Notes: generated from the sequence alone by a model not told the origin. A stretch of DNA of 64,000 nucleotides from Burkholderiales bacterium (GCA_036262835.1 DATAID010000105.1:35303-99302), one strand, 5' to 3'. Shown: positions 50,244 to 63,671, numbered from the stretch's first letter. Made by a program: numbers and translations.

Positions 50244-51590
50244 CTAGATATTGTACAGGGCTCCCGCCTGCGGCAGGGTCTCGAGGCCGCGCAGCCGCTC
50301 GAAAAGGCCGTCGCGGCGGCCCGACGGCAGCGAGCCGGCCAGGCAATCGTCGAACTTGGCGCGCAGCTCCTCCAGGCCGATCGGGTTCCTCGCATGGCCC
50401 CGGGCGTAGCGCACCGGGCCGCTTGCGAGCGAGCGCCCGTCGGCAAGGTGGATGGTCACGCTGTCCTCGGGCGCAAAGAGCGGCTCGAGGGGATCGGCTG
50501 CGTCGGTTGTCGTGATCCGGACCTTCGGAAAGAGGGCCTGAATCTCCTTCCGCCGGACGAATTCGTCGGTCAGCTCGTTCAATCCGACCTTGCCGGCGAC
50601 GACGGAGGCGGCCGCGGCGAATTCGGCGCTGAACTTGGCGTCCAGCCCGCTCTGCGGCCGGCTGTTGCGCAGCACCTGGGCCTGCAGCCGGCCGATTTTG
50701 AGTTCTATTTCTTTTATTTTTTCCACAGAAAAATCATTTTTGGATTTCAAAGCCAGCAACCCGTCGATTGAGCGGTGAAGCGCATAGCAGACCGGATAGC
50801 GTTTCACGTTCAAGCCGAGCTTGAGGATGTGCCACTCGCGCCCGGCCTTGATCTCGCCGTCGAGCCGCGCGTTGCCTTTCGGCGAATACGCCGCGAGCAT
50901 GCCTCCGGATTTGTGCTCAAGCGCATCGGGCGAGGACGTCATGCCAGCCGCCGCAAGTCGCGCCGCCGTGATGCCGCTTTGCGCCGCCCGCCCCGCCTGG
51001 AAGGGCTTGGTCATCGAGCCGAAGTTGGCCCCGAGCCCCGCGGACATCGACGCCGCGATGCCGAGTGCATTCTGGGTGCGCTTCGCATCCAGCCGCGCAA
51101 GCCGCGCCGCCGCGGCAGCCGCACCGACCGCGCCGAACACCGCGGTCGGATGCCAGCCCTTGCCGTGGTGCGGGTCGGCGTCGCGCGAAGAGAGCTCGGC
51201 CCAGCACTCGTAGCCCGCGACATACGCGGTCGCGAGGTCTGCGCCCGTGACGCCGAGGCGCTCGCCTTCGGCGAGGATCGCCGGCACGAGCACCACGCTC
51301 GGGTGACCGTCGATACCGACGTCGTCGAAGTCGAGCGCGTGCGCCGCCGCGCCGTTGAGGAGCGCCGCATCGGTCGATGAGGTCATGCCGCGGTCGAAGT
51401 GGATACGCGCTTCCTTCTTCTCGCTGAAAAGACCCTCCTCGAAAAGGATCTGGGCGACGGGCTCATTGCGGCCGGCGAACATGACGCCGACGCAGTCGAT
51501 AAAGCCCCTTTTGGCCGTTTCCACCGCTTCCTCTGGAACGGACTGGAGAGACGAAACAAATTCCGCCAGTTGCTGGGTGAGTCCGTTCAT
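50244..51590 (-). CDS. MmgE/PrpD-family protein
   Basis: Starts MNGLTQQLAEFVSSL...AKRGFIDCVGVMFAG, continuing AAHALDFDD...HPS. The ATG lies 1 nt after the upstream stop. Confidence 0.8.
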   Translation of the reverse strand: MNGLTQQLAEFVSSLQSVPEEAVETAKRGFIDCVGVMFAGRNEPVAQILFEEGLFSEKKEARIHFDRGMTSSTDAALLNGAAAHALDFDDVGIDGHPSVVLVPAILAEGERLGVTGADLATAYVAGYECWAELSSRDADPHHGKGWHPTAVFGAVGAAAAAARLARLDAKRTQNALGIAASMSAGLGANFGSMTKPFQAGRAAQSGITAARLAAAGMTSSPDALEHKSGGMLAAYSPKGNARLDGEIKAGREWHILKLGLNVKRYPVCYALHRSIDGLLALKSKNDFSVEKIKEIELKIGRLQAQVLRNSRPQSGLDAKFSAEFAAAASVVAGKVGLNELTDEFVRRKEIQALFPKVRITTTDAADPLEPLFAPEDSVTIHLADGRSLASGPVRYARGHARNPIGLEELRAKFDDCLAGSLPSGRRDGLFERLRGLETLPQAGALYNI

Positions 51591-51591
51591 G

Positions 51592-52791
51592 TCAGTAGCT
51601 CCTTGGCATGCCGAGGACGTGCTCGCCGATATAGGCGAGGACGAGGTTGGTCGAAATGGGCGCGGTGCGATGGATGCGGGCCTCGCGCCAGCGCCGCTCC
51701 ACATGGTACTCGCGCGCGAAGCCGAAGCCGCCGTAGGTTTGCATGCAGGCTTCCGCCGCTTCCCAGGCCGCTTCGGAGGCGAGCAGCTTCGCGACGTTCG
51801 CGTCCTCGCCGCAGGGCAGGCCCGCCTCGAAGAGCGCCGCCGCTTTCCTGAGCATCATGTCCGCCGCCTGCGCCTGCGCGTAGGCGCGCGCGATCGGGAA
51901 CTGGATCGCCTGGTTCTGGCCGATCGGGCGGCCGAAGACCACGCGCTCGCTTGCGTAGCTGGACGCGGTTTTCACGAACCAGCGCGCGTCGCCGATCGCC
52001 TCGTGCGAGACGAGAATGCGCTCGGCGTTCATGCCGTCGAGGATGCAGCGAAAGCCCCTGCCTTCGCCGCCGATCAGGTTCGCGGCCGGCACTCTCATGC
52101 CGTCCATGAACACTTCGGTGGTGTTGTGATTGATCATCGCCGCGAGCGGCCGTATCTCGAGGCCTTTGCCGAGGCATTCGCGCAGGTCCACCAGGAACAC
52201 CGAAAGGCCCTCGGTCTTCTTTTGCACCTGGTCGAGCGGCGTCGTGCGCGCGAGCAGCAGCATCAGGTCCGAGTGCAGCGCGCGCGAGGTCCATACCTTT
52301 TGCCCGCTGATCACGTAGTGATCGCCGTCGCGCACGGCTTTCGTCTTCAAGCTCGTCGTGTCGGTGCCCGAGGTCGGCTCGGTGACGCCGAACGCCTGCA
52401 GGCGCAGCTCGCCCGAGGCGACGCCGGGCAGGTATTTTCTTTTCTGCTCGGGACTGCCGTGGCGCAGCACCGAGCCCATGGTGTACATCTGCGCGTGGGC
52501 GGCAGCCGCGTAGCAGCCTGCGGCATGGCACTCCTCGAGCACGACGCCCGCCGCACGCAGCGGCAAACCGGCGCCGCCGTACTCCTCGGGGATGAGCGCG
52601 CCCAGGTAGCCGGCCTTGGTCAGCGCCTGCACGAACTCGGTCGGATAGGCGGACTGCTCGTCGAGCTTGCGCCAGTAGTCGCCCGGAAAATCGGCGCAGA
52701 TGCGCTGGACGCTCGCCCGGATTTCGGGCCAGTCCTCTCCGAGCGCGACGCTGACGTCACTTGCCTTTGAAGTTGGGTTTTCTCTTTTCAT
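51592..52791 (-). CDS. Acyl-CoA dehydrogenase
   Basis: About 399 aa with EEYGGAG, TEPTSGTD and a C-terminal YGGFGFAREYHVERRWREARI catalytic-base region. ATG 52791 overlaps the upstream gene by 35 nt. Confidence 0.85.
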   Translation of the reverse strand: MKRENPTSKASDVSVALGEDWPEIRASVQRICADFPGDYWRKLDEQSAYPTEFVQALTKAGYLGALIPEEYGGAGLPLRAAGVVLEECHAAGCYAAAAHAQMYTMGSVLRHGSPEQKRKYLPGVASGELRLQAFGVTEPTSGTDTTSLKTKAVRDGDHYVISGQKVWTSRALHSDLMLLLARTTPLDQVQKKTEGLSVFLVDLRECLGKGLEIRPLAAMINHNTTEVFMDGMRVPAANLIGGEGRGFRCILDGMNAERILVSHEAIGDARWFVKTASSYASERVVFGRPIGQNQAIQFPIARAYAQAQAADMMLRKAAALFEAGLPCGEDANVAKLLASEAAWEAAEACMQTYGGFGFAREYHVERRWREARIHRTAPISTNLVLAYIGEHVLGMPRSY

Positions 52792-53551
52792 TGAAGGCTT
52801 TCACGCCTTCCCGGCGGTCTTCCGTATCCACCAGCCGGTTATACGCCTCGATTTCGAACCTGTATCCGGTCAGCAGATCCATCTGCAGGCCGTAGTGGAT
52901 CGATTTTTTCGCCTGCCGCACGGAAAGCGGCGCGTTGGCGGCGATCGCCTGGGCAGTCCCGAGCGCTTCATCTAGGAGCTTGCCGGGCTCGCAGACGCGG
53001 TTGAGCACGCCCCATTCGAGCGCCTCGGCGGCGCTGAAGGGCCGTGCGGTGAGAATGAGCTCCTTCGCGCGCCGCTCGCCCACCGCGCGCGGCAGATTCT
53101 GCGTGCCCATGCCGCCCGGCATGATGCCGAGGCTTACTTCGGAGAGCGCGAAGCGCGCGTTCGCCACGGCATAGGCGAAGTCGCAGCAGAGCGCCATCTC
53201 AAGACCGCCGCCGAACGCGTGCCCGCTCACCGCGGCGATCACCGGCACCGTGCACTCGACCAGCGCGACGAAGGCGCGCTCGAAGAGCTCGTGCTGCGCC
53301 TGCCAGGCGGCTTGCGTCATGCCATCGCGCTCCTTCAGGTCGCCGCCCGCGCAGAACGCGCGCTCGCCCGAGCCGGTCAGCACGATGGCGCGCACGTTGT
53401 CAGGCCCGGCGGTAATACGGGACCACAGGTCGAGCTGGTCGTGGCCCATCTGCGTGTTGATCGCGTTCAAAACTTCCGGGCGATTAAGCGTGACGAGAAG
53501 GACTTGCTCTCCTCGTTTTTCCACCTTCAAGGTTTTGTATTCGAAATTCAC
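52757..53551 (-). CDS. Enoyl-CoA hydratase/isomerase (crotonase) family protein
   Basis: LLVTLNRPEVLNA, FCAGGDLKE and GHAFGGGLEMAL oxyanion-hole motifs. GTGA overlap with the upstream stop. Confidence 0.85.
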   Translation of the reverse strand: MNFEYKTLKVEKRGEQVLLVTLNRPEVLNAINTQMGHDQLDLWSRITAGPDNVRAIVLTGSGERAFCAGGDLKERDGMTQAAWQAQHELFERAFVALVECTVPVIAAVSGHAFGGGLEMALCCDFAYAVANARFALSEVSLGIMPGGMGTQNLPRAVGERRAKELILTARPFSAAEALEWGVLNRVCEPGKLLDEALGTAQAIAANAPLSVRQAKKSIHYGLQMDLLTGYRFEIEAYNRLVDTEDRREGVKAFNEKRKPNFKGK

Positions 53552-54684
53552 GAGCCCAGCACCGTTTTCGTATCCGCCCCGAGCGCCGGCGCGGCCGAGC
53601 GCGAAAGAGCCCTGTCCCCGTCGAAGCTGATCGGCAGGCCGATCATGGGAATGCTCGATCCGGGCACCGGCTGGAGCAGCCCGAGCGCCCTGGTCTGTTC
53701 GTGCGCGAGCATCTGCGCCACGTCCTGCACCGGCGCGCACGGCACCCCTGCAGCCTCGAGCACCTCGACCCAGTGCGCGTTGGCCTTCTTCGACATCTCG
53801 CCTTCGATCAGCGCGTAGAGCTTGTCGGCGTTCTTCACGCGCTCCGGGTTGGTCTTGAACTTGTCGCTTTCGGCCCATTCCGGATGCGAGAGCGCCCCGC
53901 AAAGCCTCTTGAAAAGATTGTCGTTCGCGCCGGAGACGACGACGTAGCCGTCGGCCGTCCGGATCGCTCGATACGGCGCGATTCCCACTTGGCCCGAGCC
54001 GTGCCGCTTCGGCAGATTGCCCGACGAGAGGTAGTGCGCCGAGAACATGTTCATCCAGCCCGCCGCCGTCTCGAAGAGAGACACGTCCACGAGCCCCCCC
54101 TTGCCCGTCTCGCGCCGGCGGTAGAGCGCGGAAACGATGCCGATCGCCGCCCACATCGCGGTGCCGACATCGATGATCGAGGGTCCGACACGCACCGGCG
54201 GCCGGCCTTCCTCGCCCACGACGCTCATCACGCCGCCGAAGGCCTGCATGAGCGCGTCGTAGCCGGGCCGCCCGGCGAGCGGGCCCTTCGCGCCGAACGC
54301 CCCCACGTTGCAATAAACGAGCCCCGGCTTTTTCCCGAGGAGCGCCTTGGCGCCGAGATCCAGCGCATCGGCCTGACCCGGGCGCAGGTTCTGCAGGACG
54401 ACGTCGGCCTTGGCGACGATGAATTCGACCAGCTTCGCCTTCTGCTTCTCGTCCCGCAGCTCGCAGACGACCGAGCGCTTGTTGCGGTTGACCGAATTGA
54501 AGGTGGCCGACGACCCGTCGGCGAAGGGGGGCCCCCAGGTGCGCGCATCGTCGCCCTGCGGCTTTTCGATCTTCACCACGTCGGCGCCCAGGTCGCCGAG
54601 GATCTGCCCCGCCGCGGGCGCCGCGACACTGTGGCCGAGCTCGACCACGACGATGCCGGCGAGCGGAGCGCTTGCCTTGGTCAT
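53548..54684 (-). CDS. CaiB/BaiF family (class III) CoA-transferase
   Basis: Starts MTKASAPLAGIVVVELGHSVAAPAAGQILGDLGADVVKIE, continuing NRNKRS...PGYDALMQA. ATGA overlap with the upstream stop. Confidence 0.85.
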   Translation of the reverse strand: MTKASAPLAGIVVVELGHSVAAPAAGQILGDLGADVVKIEKPQGDDARTWGPPFADGSSATFNSVNRNKRSVVCELRDEKQKAKLVEFIVAKADVVLQNLRPGQADALDLGAKALLGKKPGLVYCNVGAFGAKGPLAGRPGYDALMQAFGGVMSVVGEEGRPPVRVGPSIIDVGTAMWAAIGIVSALYRRRETGKGGLVDVSLFETAAGWMNMFSAHYLSSGNLPKRHGSGQVGIAPYRAIRTADGYVVVSGANDNLFKRLCGALSHPEWAESDKFKTNPERVKNADKLYALIEGEMSKKANAHWVEVLEAAGVPCAPVQDVAQMLAHEQTRALGLLQPVPGSSIPMIGLPISFDGDRALSRSAAPALGADTKTVLGS

Positions 54685-55547
54685 TTCATCAATCCGATTT
54701 CCCGAAGGTATTTCCTGACCCCGGGATGAATCAACTCGATTTTCGGCGCGGCGGCGACGGTGTTCGACGCGGTCGTCTCCCTTGCCTGCGCGAGGCGCGC
54801 GCCGAGCGCGCCCTCGGCGCGATGAATCGCTTGCGCAAGCACATATGCTTTTTCGTCCGCCAGCGCCTCGGAAGAAAGAACAAAGCTCCAGTGCCCGACG
54901 GTGTTGAGCGCCGCAGCCTGCCCCGGGTAGCTGCCCGCAGGCACCGTCATGGCTTTGAGCTGCGGCTCCTTCGCGAGGATCGTCTTGATCTCCTTCGCGT
55001 CGGGCACGATGAAGCGCCCGCCCTGCTTCGCCATCGTCTCGAACCCCGGCCAGCCAACCCCCGCGCCCCAGAGCGCAACCGCTTTGCCGTCGCGGATGAA
55101 GACTGGGCCGTCGGCTGCCTTTTCCAGGGTTATTTCCTGCACATCGACATTCAATGACTTCAAAACCATTCGGCCGAGGACGGTGAGCCCGGAACCCTGG
55201 GTCCCCAGCACGACCGGCTTTCCCTTCAGATCGGCGATCGACCGCACCGGGCTCTCGCCGCGCACGACGAACATTCCCGGCGAGCCGTACATCGCCGTGA
55301 TGATGCGAAGTCGCGTGCCGGGCTTTGCCAGCGCCCCGCTCGCGTAGTCGCCCGCGACGAGAGCGATGTCGAGCTTCCCCTCTTCGAGAAGCGGCACGTT
55401 TTCCGAGCTGCCCTTGGTGTTGCGGGTCTCGACGCGAAGCTTCGGCTCCTGCGCATTCACCGTCTCGGCGAAGGCCGCGCCGTAAACAGGGAATCCGCCG
55501 CCCGGCGTCGCCGTTCCCAGCACCAGCACGAAGAGCGCCTCGGCCAT
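54681..55547 (-). CDS. TAXI-type (TRAP-associated) solute-binding-protein homolog lacking any signal peptide
   Basis: LGTATPGGGFPVYGAAFAETVN...TKGSSENVPLLEEGKLDIALV...DLKGKPVVLGTQGSGL matches the TAXI pattern. The ORF begins with the codon immediately after the upstream TAG and has only 6 residues before the mature-domain motif. Confidence 0.65.
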   Translation of the reverse strand: MAEALFVLVLGTATPGGGFPVYGAAFAETVNAQEPKLRVETRNTKGSSENVPLLEEGKLDIALVAGDYASGALAKPGTRLRIITAMYGSPGMFVVRGESPVRSIADLKGKPVVLGTQGSGLTVLGRMVLKSLNVDVQEITLEKAADGPVFIRDGKAVALWGAGVGWPGFETMAKQGGRFIVPDAKEIKTILAKEPQLKAMTVPAGSYPGQAAALNTVGHWSFVLSSEALADEKAYVLAQAIHRAEGALGARLAQARETTASNTVAAAPKIELIHPGVRKYLREIGLMK

Positions 55548-56462
55548 CTACTGGACTCGCGCGGCCATCATCCAGCCCGAGCCCGAAAGCCGGAAGCCGT
55601 CCGCGCGGCCGCTGAAATAGCGCTCGTTCAACGCCGCCGCGCCGAGCGCGAGCGCCGAGCCGTAGCCTGCCGCGCGCAGGTCCGAGGCGAGCGTTTCGGG
55701 CTCGAAGTAGCTCACCCACGGCTCGCCCGAGCGCGCTACGAGCGCGGCGCGGCGCCAGTGCAGCCGCCGCTCGGCCGGGCCCATGGCCTCCGGCGGCGAG
55801 GAGAAGTCGAACACGATCTCGCTTCCGGGCGCGCCGCGCGCGACCGTAGCGAGCGTTTCGCGAATCGCTTTCTCGCTCAGGTAGATCGTCACGCCCAGCC
55901 AGGAAAAAAATGCAGGCCGGTCGGCGCGAAATCCGGCCGCTTTGAGTCCCTGCGCCAGTGTCTGGCGCTCGAAATCGACCGGCGCGAAGGTGAGCGTGCG
56001 CGGCACGGCGATGCCCTGGCGCGAGAGCATCTCGCGCTTCCAATTCTGCGTCGCCGCGAAGTCCACCTCGAAAACGCGCAGGTGCTTGTGCGGATTTCGG
56101 TAAGCAAAGGTGTCGAGCCCGGCACCGAGCACCACGTACTGGCGCGTTCCACGCGCGTGGGCCTCGGCGAGCTGGTCCTCGGCGTAGCGGCTGCGCATGA
56201 CGAGGAAGGCGCGCATGCCGCGAGAAGCCGGGGTGCCGTAGCGCTCGAGGTTGAAGCCGAGCCGACGCACCCCCTCCGCGCCGAAGATGCGCAGGGCGAG
56301 GGGATCCTCGAACACGCGCGGCGACTCGAGCAATTGGTGCGCCGCCCGTTGGAGCGCGGCGCCGCGGGCCGTCCTGCTGGGCCGTCCTTCTTCGAGTGCT
56401 TTTGCCGTTCCGGGCAGGAACAACGCCGCCGAAGACCCTAAGAAACCCCTCCGGGTAAGCAC
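55548..56462 (-). CDS. Class I SAM-dependent methyltransferase-like protein (LCM/TIGR00027-like) with a twin-arginine signal peptide
   Basis: N-terminus MLTRRGFLGSSAALFLPGTAKA/LEE (Tat consensus T-R-R-x-F-L, AxA cleavage site), then SRTARGAALQRAAH and VVLGAGLDTFAYR motifs. The GTG start lies 1 nt after the mmsA stop. Confidence 0.6.
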   Translation of the reverse strand: MLTRRGFLGSSAALFLPGTAKALEEGRPSRTARGAALQRAAHQLLESPRVFEDPLALRIFGAEGVRRLGFNLERYGTPASRGMRAFLVMRSRYAEDQLAEAHARGTRQYVVLGAGLDTFAYRNPHKHLRVFEVDFAATQNWKREMLSRQGIAVPRTLTFAPVDFERQTLAQGLKAAGFRADRPAFFSWLGVTIYLSEKAIRETLATVARGAPGSEIVFDFSSPPEAMGPAERRLHWRRAALVARSGEPWVSYFEPETLASDLRAAGYGSALALGAAALNERYFSGRADGFRLSGSGWMMAARVQ

Positions 56463-56463
56463 G

Positions 56464-57969
56464 TCAGCCGAGCGTCGGCATGTTGAAGCCGGCGGCGGGC
56501 GTGTCCTGGTGCGGCCAGCGCGTGGTGATCGCTTTCGTCCGCGTGTAAAACTTGACGCCTTCCATCCCGTGCACGTGCAGGTCGCCGAAGAGCGAGCTCT
56601 TCCAGCCGCCGAACGAATAGAACGCGACCGGCACCGGGATCGGCACGTTCACGCCGACCATGCCGATCGAGACCTCGTTGGCGAAGCGCCGCGCCGCGCC
56701 ACCCGACTCGGTGAAGATCGCCGCGCCGTTCGCGTAGGGGTTGGCATTGACGATCGCAATGGCTTCTTCCAGCGAGCTTGCGCGCAGAACCGAGAGCACG
56801 GGACCGAAAATCTCGTGCTTGTAGATCTCCATGCCGGGCTTCACCTGGTCGAAGAGCGTGGTGCCAAGGAAGAAACCCTCCTTGATGCCGTGATTGCGTC
56901 CGTCGACCACGAGCTTCGCGCCCTCGGCGACGCCCTTGTCGACGAAACCCTTGACCTTGTCGCGATGCTCGCCAGTGATGAGCGGGCCCATGTCCATGCC
57001 GTCCCTGTCGCCAGCCCCGACCTTGATCTTTTTGGCCTTTTCTTCGAGCAGTTTCACGATCCGGTCGCCGGCGGACCCCACTGCCACCACCGCGGAAACG
57101 GCCATGCAGCGCTCGCCCGCCGAGCCGTAACCGGCGCCGATCAATGCGTCCGCGGCGAACTCCATGTCCGCATCGGGGAGCACGACGGCATGGTTTTTCG
57201 CGCCGCCGAGCGCCTGCACGCGCTTGCCATTTCTTGCCGCGGTTTCGTAGATGTATTTGGCAATGGGAGTGGAGCCCACAAACGAGATGGCAGAAACTTT
57301 TTCGTGAGAAAGCAAGGCATCCACGGCAGCCTTGTCGCCGTGCACGACGTTAAAGACGCCGTCGGGCAGCCCCGCCTGCTTGAGCAGCTCGGCCATGAAA
57401 ATGGAAGCCGACGGGTCCTTCTCCGAGGGCTTGAGCACGAAGGTGTTGCCGCACGCCAGGGCGACCGGAAACATCCAGAGCGGCACCATGACCGGAAAAT
57501 TGAACGGCGTGATGCCGGCGCACACGCCGACCGGCTGGCGCACGGTGTGGCAATCGACGCCGGTGCCGACGTTCTCCGAGTGCTCGCCCTTGAGCAGATG
57601 CGGAATGCCGCAGGCGAATTCGACGACCTCCATGCCGCGCTGGACTGAGCCCATCGCGTCGGGCAGCGTCTTGCCGTGCTCGGCCGTGACGATGGACGCC
57701 AACTGCTTTTGGTTCTCCTGCAATAGAGCCAGGAACTTCTGCAGAACGCGCGCCCGCCTCACGGGCGGCCAGTCGCGCCATTCGGGAAGCGCCGCCGCGG
57801 CGGCCTTGACGGCTTTATCGATTGTGTCCTCGTTGCAAAGAGGCACTCGCCTGACGACCTGGCCGGTCGCAGGGTTGAAGACGTCTCCCATCCGTCCGGC
57901 GAGCGCGAGCGGCTTGCCGTTGATCCAGACGGGAACGGTGTCGAGCTTCAATTCAGCGGGCTTGTTCAT
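56464..57969 (-). CDS. mmsA: CoA-acylating methylmalonate-semialdehyde dehydrogenase
   Basis: 501-aa aldehyde dehydrogenase with ITPFNFPVMVPLWMFPVALACGNTFVLKPSEKDP and FVGST. The catalytic Cys context (GERCMA) is typical of MmsA. Confidence 0.85.
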   Translation of the reverse strand: MNKPAELKLDTVPVWINGKPLALAGRMGDVFNPATGQVVRRVPLCNEDTIDKAVKAAAAALPEWRDWPPVRRARVLQKFLALLQENQKQLASIVTAEHGKTLPDAMGSVQRGMEVVEFACGIPHLLKGEHSENVGTGVDCHTVRQPVGVCAGITPFNFPVMVPLWMFPVALACGNTFVLKPSEKDPSASIFMAELLKQAGLPDGVFNVVHGDKAAVDALLSHEKVSAISFVGSTPIAKYIYETAARNGKRVQALGGAKNHAVVLPDADMEFAADALIGAGYGSAGERCMAVSAVVAVGSAGDRIVKLLEEKAKKIKVGAGDRDGMDMGPLITGEHRDKVKGFVDKGVAEGAKLVVDGRNHGIKEGFFLGTTLFDQVKPGMEIYKHEIFGPVLSVLRASSLEEAIAIVNANPYANGAAIFTESGGAARRFANEVSIGMVGVNVPIPVPVAFYSFGGWKSSLFGDLHVHGMEGVKFYTRTKAITTRWPHQDTPAAGFNMPTLG

Positions 57970-60693: not shown

Positions 60694-61833
60694 CTAGCCG
60701 GAGCGGAGAATTTCCAGGTTGGCCTGGCGCACGTCCTTCACGCCGCAGAGCGCCATCGAGACGTCGAGCTCCTTGCGGAGGATCTCGAGGGCGAGAGAGA
60801 CGCCCTCCTCGCCCAGCGCGCCGAGCGCCCAGGCGAACGCCCGCCCGATCAGGGTGCCGCGCGCGCCGAACGCCAGCGCGCGCAGCACGTCCTGCCCCGA
60901 GCGCACGCCGCCATCGAAGAGCACCTCGCAGCGGCCGGCCACCGCGTCGACCACCTCGGGCAGGGCGCGGATGGAGGACACCGTGCCGTCGAGCTGGCGC
61001 CCGCCATGGTTGGAGACGACGACCGCGTCGGCGCCGGTCGAGACGGCGATCCTCGCGTCCTCGGCGTCGAGGATGCCTTTCAGGATGAGCTTGCCGCCCC
61101 AGAGCTTCTTGACCCACTCGACGTCGCGCCAGGAGAGCGTCGGATCGAACTGTCCCGCGATCCATTGCGAGAGCGTGAGCAGGTTGTCGGCGCCCTTGAT
61201 CTGTCCTTCGAGGTTTCCAAACGAGCGGCGACGGCTCGTCATCACGTTCAACGCCCAGCCCGGCTTCCTCAGGATATCCAGAAAAGTGGCCGGCGTAAGC
61301 CGTGGCGGCACGGTCAGGCCGTTCTTCAAGTCCATGTGCCGCTGGCCCTGGATCTGCAAGTCGAGCGTCAGCACGAGCGCGGAGCATTTCGCCGCCTTGG
61401 CGCGCTCGATCAACGAGGCCGCGAAGCCGCGGTCGCGGAACACGTAGAGCTGGAACCAGAAAGGCTTCTGCACTTCGGCGGCGACGTCCTCGATCGAGCA
61501 GATCGACATGGTCGAGAGCGTGAAGGGCACGCCGAACTTCGCGGCCGCGCGCGCGCCGAGGATCTCGCCGTCGGCCCAGTTGAGGCCCGTCAGCCCGACG
61601 GGCGCGATCGCGACCGGCATGGCGACTTCCTGGCCGACGAGCGTCGTCCTGGTCGAGCGCTTGTCCACGTTGATCGCAACGCGCTGGCGCAGGTGCACGC
61701 CTTCCAGGTCCGCGCGGTTCGCTCGCAGCGTCTCCTCGCTGTAGGAGCCGCGCGACACGTAATCGAAGATGGCCTTGGCGACCCGCCGCTCGGCGATCCG
61801 GCGCAGGTCTTCAATGCAGGTGATGACGGGCAT
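60694..61833 (-). CDS. FMN-dependent alpha-hydroxy-acid dehydrogenase/oxidase (LldD-like)
   Basis: Starts MPVITCIEDLRRIAERRV.KAIFDY, continuing SNHGGRQLD and GGVRSGQDV. 379 aa from ATG 61833. Confidence 0.8.
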   Translation of the reverse strand: MPVITCIEDLRRIAERRVAKAIFDYVSRGSYSEETLRANRADLEGVHLRQRVAINVDKRSTRTTLVGQEVAMPVAIAPVGLTGLNWADGEILGARAAAKFGVPFTLSTMSICSIEDVAAEVQKPFWFQLYVFRDRGFAASLIERAKAAKCSALVLTLDLQIQGQRHMDLKNGLTVPPRLTPATFLDILRKPGWALNVMTSRRRSFGNLEGQIKGADNLLTLSQWIAGQFDPTLSWRDVEWVKKLWGGKLILKGILDAEDARIAVSTGADAVVVSNHGGRQLDGTVSSIRALPEVVDAVAGRCEVLFDGGVRSGQDVLRALAFGARGTLIGRAFAWALGALGEEGVSLALEILRKELDVSMALCGVKDVRQANLEILRSG

Positions 61834-61879
61834 GGCGGGCCCGAGTGTTTCACATCGTGAGATACAATGCCACTCCCCC

Positions 61880-62680
61880 ATGGCGGCGCGCAGCGATCAG
61901 AAGAACGAGCGCAAGAATCCCATCCAGGTCATTGCCCGGATGATGAAGCTGCTCGACGTCCTCGCGGAGCATCCCGAGCCGCTGGGACTCAAGCAGGTTG
62001 CCCAGTACACGGGGCTGCATCCCTCCACCGCGCACCGGATTCTCTCGGCGATGGCGGGCGATCGCCTCGTCGATCGCATCGAACCGGGCAGCTACCGGCT
62101 GGGCATGCGGCTCCTCGAGCTCGGCAACCTCGTCAAGTCGCGCATCAACGTGCGCGAGATGGCGCTGCCGGTGATGCGCGAGCTGCATGCGCAGATCGGC
62201 GAGACGGTCAACCTCTCGGTGCGCCACGACGACGAGATCGTCTACGTGGAGCGCACCTCCTCGGGTCGCTCGGCGATGCGCGTGGTGCACGTGATCGGCA
62301 CGCGCGCGGCGCTTCACATCACCGCGGCGGGCAAGCTTTTCCTGCTCGAGGAAGGCTTCCCGCGCCTGCGCGAGTACGCCAAGCGCACCGGCCTCACCGG
62401 GCACACCAAGAACACGCTCACGAGCCTGCCGCTCCTTGAGCGCGAGCTTGGCCGCATCCAGACCCAAGGCTTCGCGACCGACGCCGAGGAAGCGGAGCTC
62501 GGCGTGCGCTGCGTCGCCGCCCCGGTAAGGGATGACGCAGGCCACCTCGTCGCCGCGCTCTCGATCTCCTCGCCCGCCGACCGCATGAAGGCGACCTGGG
62601 GACCGCTCGTCAAGGAATCGGCCGAGCGAATCTCGCACGCCATCGGCTATCGCAAGGAAGGCGTCCGGCTCGGGGCTTAG
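61880..62680 (+). CDS. IclR-family transcriptional regulator
   Basis: N-terminal wHTH (IQVIARMMKLLDVLAE...LGLKQVAQYTGLHPSTAHRIL) and a C-terminal IclR effector domain (ELGVRCVAAPV). Divergent from the lldD-like gene. Confidence 0.8.
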   Translation: MAARSDQKNERKNPIQVIARMMKLLDVLAEHPEPLGLKQVAQYTGLHPSTAHRILSAMAGDRLVDRIEPGSYRLGMRLLELGNLVKSRINVREMALPVMRELHAQIGETVNLSVRHDDEIVYVERTSSGRSAMRVVHVIGTRAALHITAAGKLFLLEEGFPRLREYAKRTGLTGHTKNTLTSLPLLERELGRIQTQGFATDAEEAELGVRCVAAPVRDDAGHLVAALSISSPADRMKATWGPLVKESAERISHAIGYRKEGVRLGA

Positions 62681-62687
62681 CAAATCC

Positions 62688-63671
62688 CTAGGCGGCGAGG
62701 AGCCCGTGCAGCGAAAACAGCCCGCGGCGGTCGAGCCACACCTTCGCGCCTCGAAATCCGGCGCGCCCGGCAAGCGCCTGAAACTCCGGCGCCGAATACT
62801 TGCAGGAATTCTCGCTGTGAATGGATTCGCCCGCGTCGAACGCGAATCGGTGGCGGCCAAGCTTGACGCGCTGGGCTTTCAGCGACACGAGGTGCATCTC
62901 GATGCGGCCGAGCGGCGCGTTGTAGAACGCGTAGTGCCGAAAGGCGCGCAGGTCGAAGTCAGCGCCGAGCTCGCGGTTGATTCGCGCGAGCAAGTTCAGG
63001 TTGAACTGGGCGGTCACGCCGCGCGCGTCGTTGTAGGCGGCGTGGAGCACGTTGGCGTCCTTCTTCAGGTCGACGCCGACGAGCATGGCGCCGCCCGCGC
63101 CGACCTGCGCGCGCGTCATGCGCAAAAACGCGTGCGCCTCGCCCGGCGTGAGGTTGCCGATCGTCGAGCCGGGAAAGTAGACCACGCGCCGGCCGGCGCG
63201 CCCCGGCACCGGAATCTTGAGCGGCTGCGAGAAGTCGCCATGCACCGCGCGAATGTCGAGCCAGGGGAACTCGCGCTCCAGGCGCGCGGCCGCGCCGCGC
63301 AGCGCATCCTGGGAAATGTCGACCGGAACGTACACCGCCGGCCGCACCGCGCGGATGAGGAGCCGCGACTTCAGGCTCTCGCCGCTGCCATACTCGATCA
63401 GGATGCTGCCGCGCCCCGCGAAGCGGCCGATGGCGGCGATGTGCGCGCGCGTGAGCGCAAGCTCGCTCCGCGTCGGGTAATACTCCGGCAGGCGGCAGAT
63501 CGCCTCGAAGAGGCGGCTGCCTTTTGCGTCGTAGAAGTATTTCGGCGGCAGCGCCTTCTGGCGCTGCGAGAGGCCGGCGATGACGTCCTCGCGAAAGCTG
63601 TCCGCGGGAACGACCGACTGAAGGATCTTCCTTAGAGGTGCTTGCTGCCGATGGCGGTCGTTTCGAGCCAC
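62688..63671 (-). CDS. egtD: EgtD-like L-histidine N-alpha-methyltransferase (Methyltransf_33 family)
   Basis: LPPKYFYDAKGSRLFEAICRLPEYYPTRSE, IEYGSGES, FPGSTIGN and ESIHSENSCKY motifs match the EgtD family as I recall it. ATG 63671 overlaps the upstream gene by 40 nt. Confidence 0.7.
   Translation of the reverse strand: MARNDRHRQQAPLRKILQSVVPADSFREDVIAGLSQRQKALPPKYFYDAKGSRLFEAICRLPEYYPTRSELALTRAHIAAIGRFAGRGSILIEYGSGESLKSRLLIRAVRPAVYVPVDISQDALRGAAARLEREFPWLDIRAVHGDFSQPLKIPVPGRAGRRVVYFPGSTIGNLTPGEAHAFLRMTRAQVGAGGAMLVGVDLKKDANVLHAAYNDARGVTAQFNLNLLARINRELGADFDLRAFRHYAFYNAPLGRIEMHLVSLKAQRVKLGRHRFAFDAGESIHSENSCKYSAPEFQALAGRAGFRGAKVWLDRRGLFSLHGLLAA

What the first reader, a model, noticed from the sequence alone, without database searches (positions are those of the whole stretch)
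54681..56462. Tat-signal SAM-methyltransferase-like ORF followed in the same frame, across one TAG, by a signal-less TAXI binding-protein homolog
Seen in sequence:
- ORF 55548..56462 begins MLTRRGFLGSSAALFLPGTAKA/LEE. That is a textbook twin-arginine leader with an AxA cleavage site. It sits on a protein whose body carries LCM/TIGR00027-type class I methyltransferase motifs.
- Its TAG (55548-55550) is followed immediately, in the same frame, by the ATG (55547) of a TAXI-type periplasmic solute-binding-protein homolog.
- That homolog has no signal peptide. Only MAEALF precedes the conserved GTxxxGGxxxxxG start of the mature fold.
- No TRAP membrane component lies anywhere nearby.
- Both genes sit inside an otherwise cytoplasmic acyl-CoA operon.

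Why this is odd: SAM is not known to be available in the periplasm, and a binding protein without export signal or transporter is unexplained.

Hypotheses (inference):
- Tat hitchhiking. The leaderless TAXI protein would be co-exported bound to the Tat-signal partner, as in the hydrogenase small/large subunit or DmsAB precedents.
- TAG read-through, or an ancestral fusion split by a stop codon.
- Both proteins are cytoplasmic ligand-binding or sensor modules and the RR leader is vestigial.

Sharing a frame has a 1-in-3 chance expectation on its own.
Basis: partly seen in the sequence, partly recalled or inferred. Interest (0 to 1): 0.55.

Follow-up and report, generated by a model that had tools for sequence, protein, structure and literature searches.

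The report
Tat-leader methyltransferase beside leaderless TAXI protein
Two ordinary neighbouring genes in a soil Burkholderiales catabolic operon have swapped their expected cell compartments: a carboxyl-methyltransferase relative gained an export (Tat) leader and a binding-protein relative lost its leader. Comparison with related genomes shows that they are independent genes, not a fused, read-through or obligatorily co-exported pair.

Summary
In detail: a GTG-start ORF (55548-56462, minus strand) encodes a TIGR00027/LCM methyltransferase with an N-terminal T-R-R-G-F-L ... A-K-A leader. Its TAG is followed directly, in frame, by the ATG of a 288-aa TAXI homolog lacking the family's first ~31 positions.

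- **Read-through or split fusion is rejected.** The in-frame TAG is not conserved. An 86%-identical relative has TAG plus 4 nt in another frame; other relatives have 40 nt, 52 nt, or a whole gene between. No fused homolog was found.
- **Hitchhiking is not supported.** The leaderless TAXI proteins form one clade that nearly always follows an mmsA-like aldehyde dehydrogenase. The slot between them is variable: empty, a metallo-beta-lactamase-fold lipoprotein, a Bug/TctC binding protein, or the methyltransferase. The methyltransferase occupies it in only 3 of 25 fully visible intervals.
- **The Tat leader looks functional.** The twin-arginine motif is kept in 102 of 106 homologs, while most nearest relatives (about 40-55% identity) are leaderless.

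Best reading: the methyltransferase is an exported ML2640c/OPCMT-type carboxyl-methyltransferase homolog, and the TAXI derivative is cytoplasmic. They are juxtaposed by ordinary gene packing. This is a new variant of known kinds and moderately interesting.

The parts
56464..57969 (-). mmsA-like (methylmalonate-semialdehyde-type) aldehyde dehydrogenase, first gene of the operon
   Evidence: PF00171 at 2.8e-145. A 76-92% identical ortholog lies upstream of nearly every leaderless TAXI homolog.
55548..56462 (-). ML2640c/OPCMT-type (TIGR00027, LCM) class I methyltransferase homolog with an N-terminal twin-arginine leader; GTG start; 304 aa
   Evidence: PF04072 at 2.3e-47 and TIGR00027 at 3e-54. 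Foldseek to Rv0731c (6ID6) gives TM 0.70 and to ML2640c (2UYQ) 0.71. The catalytic landmarks Thr20 and Tyr194 map to T31 and Y194.
56397..56462 (-). Predicted Tat signal peptide, codons 1-22: MLTRRGFLGSSAALFLPGTAKA, with cleavage after A-K-A
   Evidence: It matches RR.[FGAVML][LITMVF], has 15 uncharged residues after RR, and ends in AxA. The motif is kept in 102 of 106 homologs. The window copy itself gives no hit to TIGR01409 or PF10518.
55548..55550 (-). TAG stop of the methyltransferase, abutting the ATG (55545-55547) of the TAXI gene in the same frame
   Evidence: Read directly from the sequence. The arrangement is not conserved in relatives.
54681..55547 (-). Leaderless TAXI-family solute-binding-protein homolog, 288 aa
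   Evidence: TIGR02122 at 4e-58 over profile positions 32-320 only, and PF16868 at 2.3e-39. PDB sequence match to 1US4 at 2.8e-21. Foldseek to TAXI structures gives TM 0.66-0.73. It belongs to a monophyletic leaderless clade.
53548..54684 (-). Family III (CaiB/BaiF-type) CoA-transferase; its ATG overlaps the TAXI stop (ATGA)
   Evidence: PF02515 at 1.4e-119. The overlap was read.
52757..53545 (-). Enoyl-CoA hydratase/isomerase
   Evidence: PF00378 at 1.1e-70.
51592..52791 (-). Acyl-CoA dehydrogenase
   Evidence: PF00441, PF02771 and PF02770.
50244..51590 (-). MmgE/PrpD-family protein, last gene of the operon, followed by parE
   Evidence: PF03972 at 2.2e-54 and PF19305 at 6.6e-33. The start was placed by comparison with L093.

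Best explanation
These are two separate genes that happen to abut inside a variable 'accessory slot' of a vertically inherited Burkholderiales catabolic operon. The layout is mnmC | mmsA-like aldehyde dehydrogenase (ALDH) - [slot] - leaderless TAXI - CoA-transferase / hydratase / dehydrogenase / PrpD | parE-parC.

**Methyltransferase (MTase).**
- It is a homolog of the ML2640c/OPCMT small-molecule carboxyl methyltransferases.
- It belongs to a minority sub-branch that acquired a genuine twin-arginine leader.
- It is therefore most likely exported already folded through Tat, possibly with its nucleotide cofactor bound. It would then join the other exported proteins that occupy the same slot in relatives: a metallo-beta-lactamase (MBL)-fold lipoprotein and a Bug/TctC binding protein.

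**TAXI protein.**
- It belongs to a monophyletic clade that lost the Sec-type leader still carried by its nearest relatives at 55-61% identity.
- That clade became fixed just downstream of the ALDH.
- It most likely stays in the cytoplasm as a soluble binder of a small carboxylate of this pathway, or possibly as an enzyme.
- It does not need the MTase.

**TAG|ATG junction.**
- It is ordinary tight gene packing, allowing termination-reinitiation coupling.
- It probably arose by loss of the MBL gene that separates the two genes in some relatives.

**Shown versus inferred.**
- Shown: the family assignments, leader conservation, leader loss, variable slot and non-conserved junction.
- Inferred: the actual compartments and the biochemical roles.
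For: **Families**
- ML2640c and Rv0731c are experimentally shown carboxyl methyltransferases with landmark residues Thr20 and Tyr194 (PMC10193983). These map to the invariant T31 and Y194 here.

**The leader is real**
- 102 of 106 homologs with intact N-termini keep RR.[FGAVML][LITMVF].
- Position -1 is S/T in 81 of 102, position +3 is F in 98, and position +4 is L in 92.
- The hydrophobic region varies in sequence and length.
- One homolog's leader passes TIGR01409 (23.6 bits against a cutoff of 16.7).

**The leader is acquired**
- In an exhaustive search, most of the 150 best 50%-cluster representatives are about 280-290 aa and start about 5 residues before the PSxTA motif.
- Only about 5 representatives carry RR leaders.

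**TAXI leader loss**
- Among the best 120 listed hits (68-91% identity), almost all are 284-293 aa and start at beta-strand 1.
- Homologs at 55-61% identity carry ordinary signal peptides.
- The leaderless clade is monophyletic with a long stem branch.
- P0071 and P0076 keep remnants resembling the end of a signal peptide (A-x-A-Q).

**Independence of the two genes**
- Gene directly upstream of TAXI in a TAXI-seeded sample: ALDH 13, MBL lipoprotein 14, Bug 7, MTase 1, SnoaL-like 1.
- MTase is present in 3 of 25 fully visible ALDH-to-TAXI intervals.
- MTase-bearing loci are scattered over at least 5 sub-branches of the TAXI tree.
- No TAXI alignment column is associated with MTase presence after Bonferroni correction.
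- A Tat-MTase homolog stands alone in L091 and L092.

**Junction**
- Junctions between the two genes vary across relatives.
- TAXI abuts whichever gene precedes it: the distance is 15 nt or less in 26 of 36 loci.
Against: - No signal-peptide predictor (SignalP, TatP) could be run.
- The window's own leader is short (22 aa) and gives no hit to TIGR01409 or PF10518.
- Two annotation pipelines start the gene at codon 14.
- SAM is not known to be available in the periplasm, so an exported SAM-dependent methyltransferase has no obvious way to turn over.
- A cytoplasmic role for a TAXI-family protein has no described precedent. A 2025 paper on TAXI proteins states that all other SBPs are secreted or lipid-anchored (PMC12344293).
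- MTase-bearing loci occur in several TAXI sub-branches, always in the same position. This fits the MTase being ancestral to the leaderless clade and leaves a historical link between the two relocations open.
Confidence: 0.55

Rival explanations
1. Tat hitchhiking. In genomes that carry both genes, the leaderless TAXI protein folds in the cytoplasm and binds the Tat-leader methyltransferase (MTase). It is then carried into the periplasm as a passenger, as in HybOC, DmsAB, PaoABC or the Burkholderia cepacia FAD-glucose dehydrogenase gamma/alpha pair.
For: - The leader states are reciprocal within one operon.
- The stop-start abutment here and in L043 favours coupled, equimolar synthesis.
It persists in L089 even when separated from the ALDH.
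- The TAXI clade descends from exported ancestors and keeps the family's ligand-site motifs.
- Hitchhiker precedents exist, including one in Burkholderia (PMC4273604, PMC6719666).
Against: - The MTase is absent from 22 of 25 fully visible ALDH-to-TAXI intervals. In those, TAXI remains intact and 65-72% identical.
- The alternative slot genes carry Sec or lipoprotein leaders, which cannot carry a folded passenger.
- The Tat-MTase also occurs without TAXI.
- No TAXI residue is specific to MTase-bearing loci.
- The fused-chain AlphaFold2 model has pTM 0.52 with a disordered junction. This is a weak test because the alignment was unpaired.
Confidence: 0.08
2. Both proteins are cytoplasmic. Either the methyltransferase really starts at the TTG of codon 14 as publicly annotated, or its RR segment is a non-exporting remnant. 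The pair would then act on pathway carboxylates inside the cell, where SAM is available.
For: - NCBI and JGI annotate a 291-aa product without the RR motif.
- The window's leader gives no hit to the Tat HMMs.
- The nearest relatives are leaderless cytoplasmic enzymes that share the same SWLGV..YL motif.
- SAM dependence argues for a cytoplasmic location.
Against: - The RR-x-F-L motif, hydrophobic stretch and small-x-small cleavage site are kept in 102-103 of 106 homologs across 58-100% identity. Meanwhile the intervening residues and the length drift, which is the signature of a functional signal peptide.
- Many homologs begin with ATG right before the motif and directly after the ALDH stop.
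- The extension is absent from the cytoplasmic relatives.
Confidence: 0.12
3. TAG read-through, or a recently split fusion. A 592-residue methyltransferase-TAXI protein would be made by suppression of the single in-frame TAG, delivering the TAXI domain with the Tat leader.
For: The frame is shared, with only one TAG between the ORFs.
Against: - The 86%-identical ortholog L093 has TAG plus 4 nt and a different frame. L043 uses TGA. L089 and L094 have 40 and 52 nt spacers in other frames. L019, L020 and L039 have a whole gene between.
- The methyltransferase C-terminus is conserved to its last residues.
- No homolog of fused length appears in the top hits. The seven multidomain relatives scanned by Pfam (P0249, P0257, P0259, P0264, P0332, P0337, P0338) carry MerR/TipAS, PPTase or helicase domains, never TAXI.
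Confidence: 0.01
4. The leaderless TAXI protein still works outside the cytoplasm by some other route, such as an unrecognised partner encoded elsewhere or non-classical secretion. It would serve as an orphan receptor for uptake or signalling, like Bug-family proteins.
For: - Its slot neighbours are all exported proteins that handle extracellular substrates.
- The whole subfamily, leader-bearing members included, lacks TRAP permeases nearby and often sits next to Bug/TctC genes.
- TAXI proteins can pair with non-TRAP transporters (PMC12344293).
Against: - There is no export signal of any kind. The N-terminus is beta-strand 1 of the fold.
- The gene is translationally coupled to cytoplasmic enzymes: the ALDH upstream in 13 loci and the CoA-transferase downstream here.
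- Leader loss coincides with relocation next to the ALDH.
Confidence: 0.07

Closest known systems
ML2640c / Rv0731c / OPCMT-like small-molecule carboxyl methyltransferases (TIGR00027, Pfam LCM; PMC10193983)
   Same: - Same HMM family (TIGR00027 at 3e-54) and same fold (TM 0.70-0.71).
- The carboxylate-holding landmarks are kept: Thr20 maps to T31 and Tyr194 to Y194.
- The SAM contacts R28, R90, G115, D135, D164 and G190 are kept.
   Different: - It carries a 22-aa twin-arginine leader that the characterised actinobacterial enzymes and most close relatives lack.
- Glu189 (SAM-tail contact) is Leu, in a SWLGV..YL motif. That change is shared with the leaderless relatives, so it is a subfamily trait and not a consequence of export.
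- The substrate is unknown.
TAXI-family TRAP solute-binding proteins (TtGluBP 1US4/8U79, VcGluP 8S4J/9IBO, VCA0144 9IBP)
   Same: - TIGR02122 at 4e-58.
- Full two-lobe fold (TM 0.66-0.73).
- The GTATPGGG and TKGSxEN ligand-site motifs are invariant.
   Different: - No signal peptide or lipobox.
- No TRAP (or GltS) membrane partner within 64 kb.
- Embedded between, and translationally coupled to, cytoplasmic enzymes.
Tat hitchhiker pairs (HybO/HybC, DmsA/DmsB, PaoABC, B. cepacia FAD-GDH gamma/alpha)
   Same: One partner carries an RR leader and the adjacent partner has none; the two genes are co-transcribed.
   Different: - Known pairs are obligate subunits of one redox enzyme and co-occur strictly.
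- Here the partners occur independently, and no complex is predicted.
Orphan periplasmic receptors in Burkholderiales (Bug/TctC family) and TAXI-GltS BP0403 (PMC12344293)
   Same: Binding-protein genes scattered in catabolic operons without a cognate TRAP permease. Bug genes even occupy the same slot in relatives.
   Different: Those proteins keep Sec or lipoprotein leaders; this one does not.
Cytoplasmic proteins with the periplasmic-binding-protein fold (THI5/NMT1 HMP-P synthase, 4H6D/4H67)
   Same: Same clan (weak PF09084 hit at 1.8e-07; Foldseek hits). They are a precedent for this fold working inside the cell.
   Different: Only distant similarity (about 15% identity). There is no evidence here for catalytic residues.

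Membership tests
Twin-arginine (Tat) signal peptide | S/T-R-R-x-F-L-K-type motif near the N-terminus | tested here: met
   The window has T-R-R-G-F-L-G at residues 3-9. The TatP-style regex RR.[FGAVML][LITMVF] is matched here and in 102 of 106 homologs.
Twin-arginine (Tat) signal peptide | Uncharged, moderately hydrophobic stretch of at least 13 residues after RR, followed by a small-x-small cleavage site | tested here: met
   There are 15 uncharged residues (GFLGSSAALFLPGTA), then K, then A-K-A|L. A small-x-small site is present in 103 of 106 homologs. Mean hydropathy of the hydrophobic region is 1.05.
Twin-arginine (Tat) signal peptide | Score above the curated cutoff of TIGR01409 or PF10518 | tested here: inconclusive
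   The window's leader gives no hit. Homolog P0193 scores 23.6 bits against a cutoff of 16.7. Other homologs score 9-19 bits, below the cutoffs.
Twin-arginine (Tat) signal peptide | Tat-dependent export shown experimentally, or by SignalP/TatP | not testable with these tools
   No predictor or experiment was available.
OPCMT-like / TIGR00027 carboxyl methyltransferase | Family HMM above the curated cutoff | tested here: met
   TIGR00027 scores 184.2 bits against a cutoff of 93.55. PF04072 scores 161.8 bits against 22.3.
OPCMT-like / TIGR00027 carboxyl methyltransferase | Landmark substrate-carboxylate residues Thr20 and Tyr/Phe194 (PMC10193983) | tested here: met
   - T31 lies in the motif TA......RAA, compared with ML2640c T-A-V-M-V-A-A-A-R-A-A.
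- Y194 lies in GVTIYL, compared with GLLMYL.
- Both are invariant in the clade.
OPCMT-like / TIGR00027 carboxyl methyltransferase | SAM-contact residues R28, R90, A113, S114, G115, D135, D164, L165, E189, G190 | tested here: inconclusive
   - Mapped to R39, R90, G113, A114, G115, D134, D163, F164, L189 and G190.
- All are kept or conservatively changed except Glu189, which is Leu.
- The same Leu is found in 100 leaderless relatives.
OPCMT-like / TIGR00027 carboxyl methyltransferase | Methyl-ester formation from a carboxylic acid plus SAM | not testable with these tools
   A biochemical assay is needed.
TAXI-family TRAP solute-binding subunit | Family HMM above the cutoff, and a two-lobe binding-protein fold | tested here: met
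   TIGR02122 scores 196.8 bits against a cutoff of 84.35. Foldseek TM is 0.66-0.73 to 9IBP, 1US4, 4DDD and 9IBO.
TAXI-family TRAP solute-binding subunit | N-terminal signal peptide or lipobox (extracytoplasmic location) | tested here: not met
   - The match starts at profile position 32, at residue 8 of the protein.
- An in-frame TAG lies immediately upstream.
- Almost all of the best 120 listed hits (68-91% identity) are equally short, 284-293 aa.
TAXI-family TRAP solute-binding subunit | Cognate TRAP membrane component encoded nearby | tested here: not met
   None was found in the 64-kb window. No TRAP-sized polytopic ORF was found in the related loci of 6 kb or more that were scanned.
Tat hitchhiker heterodimer | Strict co-occurrence of the leader-bearing and leaderless partners | tested here: not met
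   The methyltransferase is present in 3 of 25 fully visible intervals upstream of leaderless TAXI. The Tat-methyltransferase occurs alone in L091 and L092.
Tat hitchhiker heterodimer | Stable complex between the partners | tested here: inconclusive
   The fused-chain AlphaFold2 model with an unpaired alignment has pTM 0.52 and junction pLDDT below 50. No multimer tool or PAE output was available.
Programmed stop-codon read-through / split gene fusion | Conserved in-frame stop and frame relationship, or fused orthologs | tested here: not met
   Junctions vary in stop codon, spacer and frame. No fused homolog was found.

The most novel reading that the evidence does not exclude
In the minority of genomes that keep both genes, the Tat-leader carboxyl-methyltransferase homolog carries the leaderless TAXI protein into the periplasm as a hitchhiker. 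This would be the first solute-binding protein exported without a signal of its own. It would form a periplasmic complex between a carboxylate receptor and a methyltransferase-fold enzyme.
Probability: 0.07. Interest if true: 0.8.

Novelty: new variant of a known kind. Interest (0 to 1): 0.42.

Why it matters
- **Binding-protein location.** Solute-binding proteins of the TRAP/TAXI type are treated as extracytoplasmic by definition (PMC12344293, PMC9602780). A large, conserved and apparently cytoplasmic TAXI clade wired to an mmsA-type dehydrogenase would be a natural case of a transporter receptor recruited for intracellular work, whether ligand buffering, channelling, sensing or catalysis.
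- **Methyltransferase location.** SAM-dependent methyltransferases are treated as cytoplasmic. A conserved Tat-leader branch of the newly recognised carboxyl-methyltransferase family raises a question. Either SAM chemistry or a SAM-independent use of the fold happens in the periplasm, or Tat export of a cofactor-loaded enzyme gives a single-turnover or structural role.
- **Testability.** Both questions can be tested with simple fusions, fractionation and ligand screens.
- **Annotation.** Two pipelines start the methyltransferase at codon 14 and so hide the leader.

Tried and rejected
- **Read-through or fusion.** Rejected from the junction comparison and the absence of fused homologs.
- **Missed upstream start for TAXI.** The apparent leader-bearing close homolog P0060 has a T-rich, 50%-GC stretch upstream and an internal Met. 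It is therefore ambiguous; it could be a remnant or a miscalled start.
- **Loss of the SAM-tail Glu189 as a sign that the exported clade is no longer a methyltransferase.** Rejected, because the same Leu occurs in 100 leaderless relatives.
- **Pseudo-multimer prediction.**
  - A concatenated chain with a block-diagonal alignment ran, but only pTM and pLDDT are returned. The test is therefore weak.
- **Curated Tat HMMs on the window's leader.** No hit.
- **Genome-collection scan with the single TAXI sequence.** Whole-genome co-occurrence therefore could not be tested.
- **Literature searches.** Searches for Tat-exported SAM methyltransferases and for leaderless TRAP/TAXI binding proteins found no direct precedent.
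- **TRAP permease search by transmembrane count.** Nothing was found in the window, and nothing TRAP-sized in the scanned loci.

Full report
**1. The observation**

On the minus strand a GTG at 56462 lies one base after the TGA of an aldehyde dehydrogenase (ALDH) gene. It opens a 304-codon ORF reading MLTRRGFLGSSAALFLPGTAKA/LEEGRPSRTARG....
- The body is a TIGR00027/LCM class I methyltransferase (MTase). TIGR00027 scores 3e-54 and PF04072 scores 2.3e-47, both matching from about residue 30.
- Its TAG (55548-55550) is followed with no spacer, and in frame, by the ATG of a 288-aa protein.
- That protein matches TIGR02122 (TAXI TRAP solute-binding subunit) at 4e-58, but only over profile positions 32-320 of 320. 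The part of the model that covers the signal peptide has no counterpart.
- An in-frame stop directly upstream rules out a missed start.
- The TAXI stop overlaps the ATG of a family III CoA-transferase (ATGA). Downstream come an enoyl-CoA hydratase, an acyl-CoA dehydrogenase and an MmgE/PrpD protein, then parE and parC. Upstream of the ALDH, mnmC is transcribed divergently.
- No ORF in the 64-kb window has the size and transmembrane count of a TRAP permease. The large membrane ORFs are OpgH-like and GGDEF proteins.
- The window is from a Burkholderiales MAG. The TAXI protein is NCBI HEX2651683.1. The MTase is HEX2651684.1, annotated as 291 aa starting at codon 14, so the public record hides the RR motif.

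**2. The leader on the methyltransferase**

Among the 120 best homologs (58-100% identity), 106 have an intact N-terminus.
- 102 match the TatP-type pattern RR.[FGAVML][LITMVF].
- Position -1 is S/T in 81 of those 102, position +3 is F in 98, and position +4 is L in 92.
- 103 of the 106 have a small-x-small site just before the conserved PSxTA start of the enzyme.
- The residues in between drift in sequence and length (median leader 27 aa).

That pattern is what a working signal peptide looks like. It also supports the GTG start: in relatives the equivalent start is often an ATG placed right after the ALDH stop.

Curated Tat HMMs give a mixed answer. There is no hit for the window's own short leader, a pass for one homolog (TIGR01409, 23.6 bits against a cutoff of 16.7), and sub-threshold scores for others.

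An exhaustive search of 1.84 billion cluster representatives shows that the leader is a derived feature. Most of the 150 best representatives (about 40-55% identity) are 280-290 aa and begin about 5 residues before PSxTA. Only about five carry N-terminal RR leaders.

**3. What the methyltransferase is**

Its nearest solved relatives are ML2640c (2CKD, 2UYO, 2UYQ) and Rv0731c (6ID6), by sequence profile (3e-15 and 2e-14) and by fold (TM 0.70-0.71).

These two proteins were shown in 2023 to be small-molecule carboxyl methyltransferases ('OPCMT-like'). Their landmark residues are Thr20 and Tyr194, with a defined set of SAM contacts (PMC10193983).
- From the alignments, the landmarks map to T31 and Y194, both invariant in the clade.
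- The SAM contacts map to R39, R90, G113, A114, G115, D134, D163, F164 and G190.
- The one exception is Glu189, which contacts the SAM amino-acid tail and is Leu here. The same SWLGV..YL motif is present in 100 leaderless relatives, so it is a subfamily trait and not linked to export.

Multidomain relatives are fused to MerR-HTH/TipAS drug-recognition modules, a phosphopantetheinyl transferase, or a NERD-UvrD helicase. None is fused to a TAXI domain.

**4. What the TAXI protein is**

- Among the best 120 listed hits (68-91% identity), almost all are 284-293 aa and start at beta-strand 1: M-x-x-x-x-F-x-L-x-L-G-T-A-T-P-G-G-G.
- Homologs at 55-61% identity carry ordinary Sec-type leaders, for example MKLELMLLLPLLAALGDLGMTAVAHAQQ.
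- In a neighbour-joining tree the leaderless proteins form one clade on a long stem branch.
- A few members (P0071, P0076, and P0060 from an internal Met) start with ...S-A-Q or ...M-A-Q remnants. These resemble the cleavage region of the ancestral leader.
- The ligand-site motifs are invariant, and the fold matches glutamate-binding TAXI proteins (TM 0.66-0.73).
- No TRAP-sized permease lies near either the leaderless or the leader-bearing members among the loci of 6 kb or more that were scanned. Bug/TctC genes are frequent neighbours.

**5. Are the two genes linked?**

I fetched 88 loci seeded with the TAXI protein and 7 more from look-ups of methyltransferase homologs and of TAXI homolog P0060.

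The leaderless TAXI nearly always lies downstream of a 76-92% identical ALDH, in the same mnmC ... parE-parC neighbourhood. The interval between the ALDH and TAXI is variable.
- Gene directly upstream of TAXI: the ALDH itself in 13 loci, a metallo-beta-lactamase (MBL)-fold lipoprotein in 14, a Bug/TctC binding protein with a Sec leader in 7, the MTase in 1, and a SnoaL-like protein in 1.
- Among the 25 loci where the whole interval is visible, the MTase is present in 3.
- When present, the MTase always sits right after the ALDH. The MBL gene always sits right before TAXI. This suggests a fuller ancestral order, ALDH-MTase-(Bug)-MBL-TAXI, eroded by deletions.
- MTase-bearing loci are scattered over at least five sub-branches of the TAXI tree.
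- No TAXI alignment column is associated with MTase presence after multiple-test correction (best p = 8e-4, against a threshold of 9e-5).
- Conversely, a 58%-identical MTase with an intact RR leader sits alone, with no TAXI gene within 7 kb.

Against this, the pair does recur. At least ten contigs carry both genes among the top hits (matching contig lengths). In L089 the pair stays together although separated from the ALDH.

**6. The junction**

| Locus | Stop and spacer | Frame relative to the MTase |
|---|---|---|
| Window | TAG, then ATG, 0 nt | same |
| L093 (86% identical, same seven-gene operon) | TAG + 4 nt | different |
| L043 | TGA, then TTG, 0 nt | same |
| L089 / L090 | TAG + 40 nt | different |
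| L094 | TAG + 52 nt | different |
| L019 / L020 / L039 | a whole MBL gene between | not applicable |

- Two of five distinct direct junctions share a frame, which is the chance rate.
- The MTase C-terminus is conserved to its end.
- TAXI abuts whatever gene precedes it: the distance is 15 nt or less in 26 of 36 loci.
- The TAG|ATG arrangement is therefore generic operon packing that allows termination-reinitiation. It is not a recoding site or a fusion scar.

**7. Complex prediction**

No multimer tool was available. A concatenated chain with a block-diagonal alignment of homologs of each half (A2) gave two reasonably folded halves.
- Mean pLDDT was 77.5.
- pTM was only 0.52.
- pLDDT was below 50 across the junction.

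That is the value expected for two domains without a confident mutual arrangement. The test is weak because the alignment was unpaired, there was no linker, and no PAE was returned.

**8. Interpretation**

- The data fit two independent relocations meeting in one operon. A carboxyl-methyltransferase homolog gained a Tat leader. A TAXI receptor lost its Sec leader and became a fixed, translationally coupled companion of an mmsA-type dehydrogenase.
- The slot genes in relatives are all exported proteins (lipoprotein hydrolase, Bug receptor). An exported methyltransferase-fold protein is therefore in keeping with the slot, even though its chemistry in a SAM-free compartment is unexplained. Tat export would at least allow it to leave folded and loaded with cofactor.
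- The TAXI derivative most likely acts inside the cell as a binder, or possibly an enzyme, for a small carboxylate of the pathway.
- The compartments and biochemical roles are inferences.
- Hitchhiking remains possible only for the minority of genomes with both genes, and I rate it at about 0.08.
- 'Both cytoplasmic' rates about 0.12. Its main support is the annotation start, the failed HMM test and the SAM argument.

**9. Novelty**

Each protein is a clear member of a known family by sequence and fold, but each departs from a feature regarded as general for that family.
- Searches of the held literature found no description of leaderless TAXI proteins or of Tat-exported SAM methyltransferases.
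- A 2025 TAXI paper states that all other SBPs are secreted or lipid-anchored.
- I therefore class the finding as a new variant of known kinds.
- It is moderately interesting for the two relocations themselves, and not for the fusion or hitchhiking idea that prompted it.

Noticed in passing
window 56423-56462 (codons 1-13 of the methyltransferase): NCBI (HEX2651684.1) and JGI annotate this gene as 291 aa starting at the TTG of codon 14, and other cluster members as 255 aa. The conserved RR motif is therefore missing from the public protein records.
   Followed up: yes
L019, L020, L025, L039, L045, L022, L095 (gene directly upstream of TAXI): A ~280-aa metallo-beta-lactamase-fold protein with a lipobox leader (e.g. 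...LAGC...LGGC) and an HxHxDH motif is the commonest gene in the slot before the leaderless TAXI. It is often translationally coupled to TAXI by an ATGA overlap. It may be a periplasmic lactonase or esterase feeding the pathway.
   Followed up: partly
L094:3859-7200: In one relative the genes downstream of TAXI (CoA-transferase, acyl-CoA dehydrogenase, PrpD, plus TctC and SDR fragments) are reduced to fragments. The ALDH, methyltransferase, TAXI and hydratase stay intact. This is operon decay that spares the core.
   Followed up: no
Proteins P0249, P0250, P0260, P0264, P0271, P0337, P0356, P0366, P0374 (relatives of the methyltransferase): Relatives at 44-49% identity are C-terminal domains of 536-699-aa proteins with MerR-type N-termini. 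Pfam confirmed MerR HTH plus TipAS antibiotic-recognition domains for P0249, P0264 and P0337. P0338 is fused to a 4'-phosphopantetheinyl transferase, and P0332 to NERD plus UvrD helicase domains.
   Followed up: partly
L004:8118-10593: A leader-bearing TAXI paralog lies immediately after a 509-aa ORF with about 12 transmembrane segments, and a Bug/TctC gene lies 2 kb upstream. This could be a TAXI receptor attached to a tripartite tricarboxylate (TctCBA) transporter rather than a TRAP one.
   Followed up: no
Methyltransferase residue L189 (window ~55896-55898) and homologs: The Glu that contacts the SAM amino-acid tail in ML2640c (Glu189) is an invariant Leu in a SWLGV..YL motif. This holds both in the Tat-leader clade and in 100 leaderless relatives. 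The effect on cofactor binding is unknown.
   Followed up: partly
window 62688-63671 (-) and 60694-61881 (-): These ORFs are an EgtD-like histidine-specific SAM methyltransferase (PF10017, 1.1e-108) and an FMN-dependent alpha-hydroxy-acid dehydrogenase (PF01070). The FMN-dependent dehydrogenase and an IclR regulator recur next to mnmC in relatives L089 and L093.
   Followed up: no
L089:8853-10669: In one relative a PAS-GGDEF-EAL signalling protein is inserted between the leaderless TAXI gene and the enoyl-CoA hydratase gene. A PhD/PIN toxin-antitoxin pair precedes parE there and in L094.
   Followed up: no
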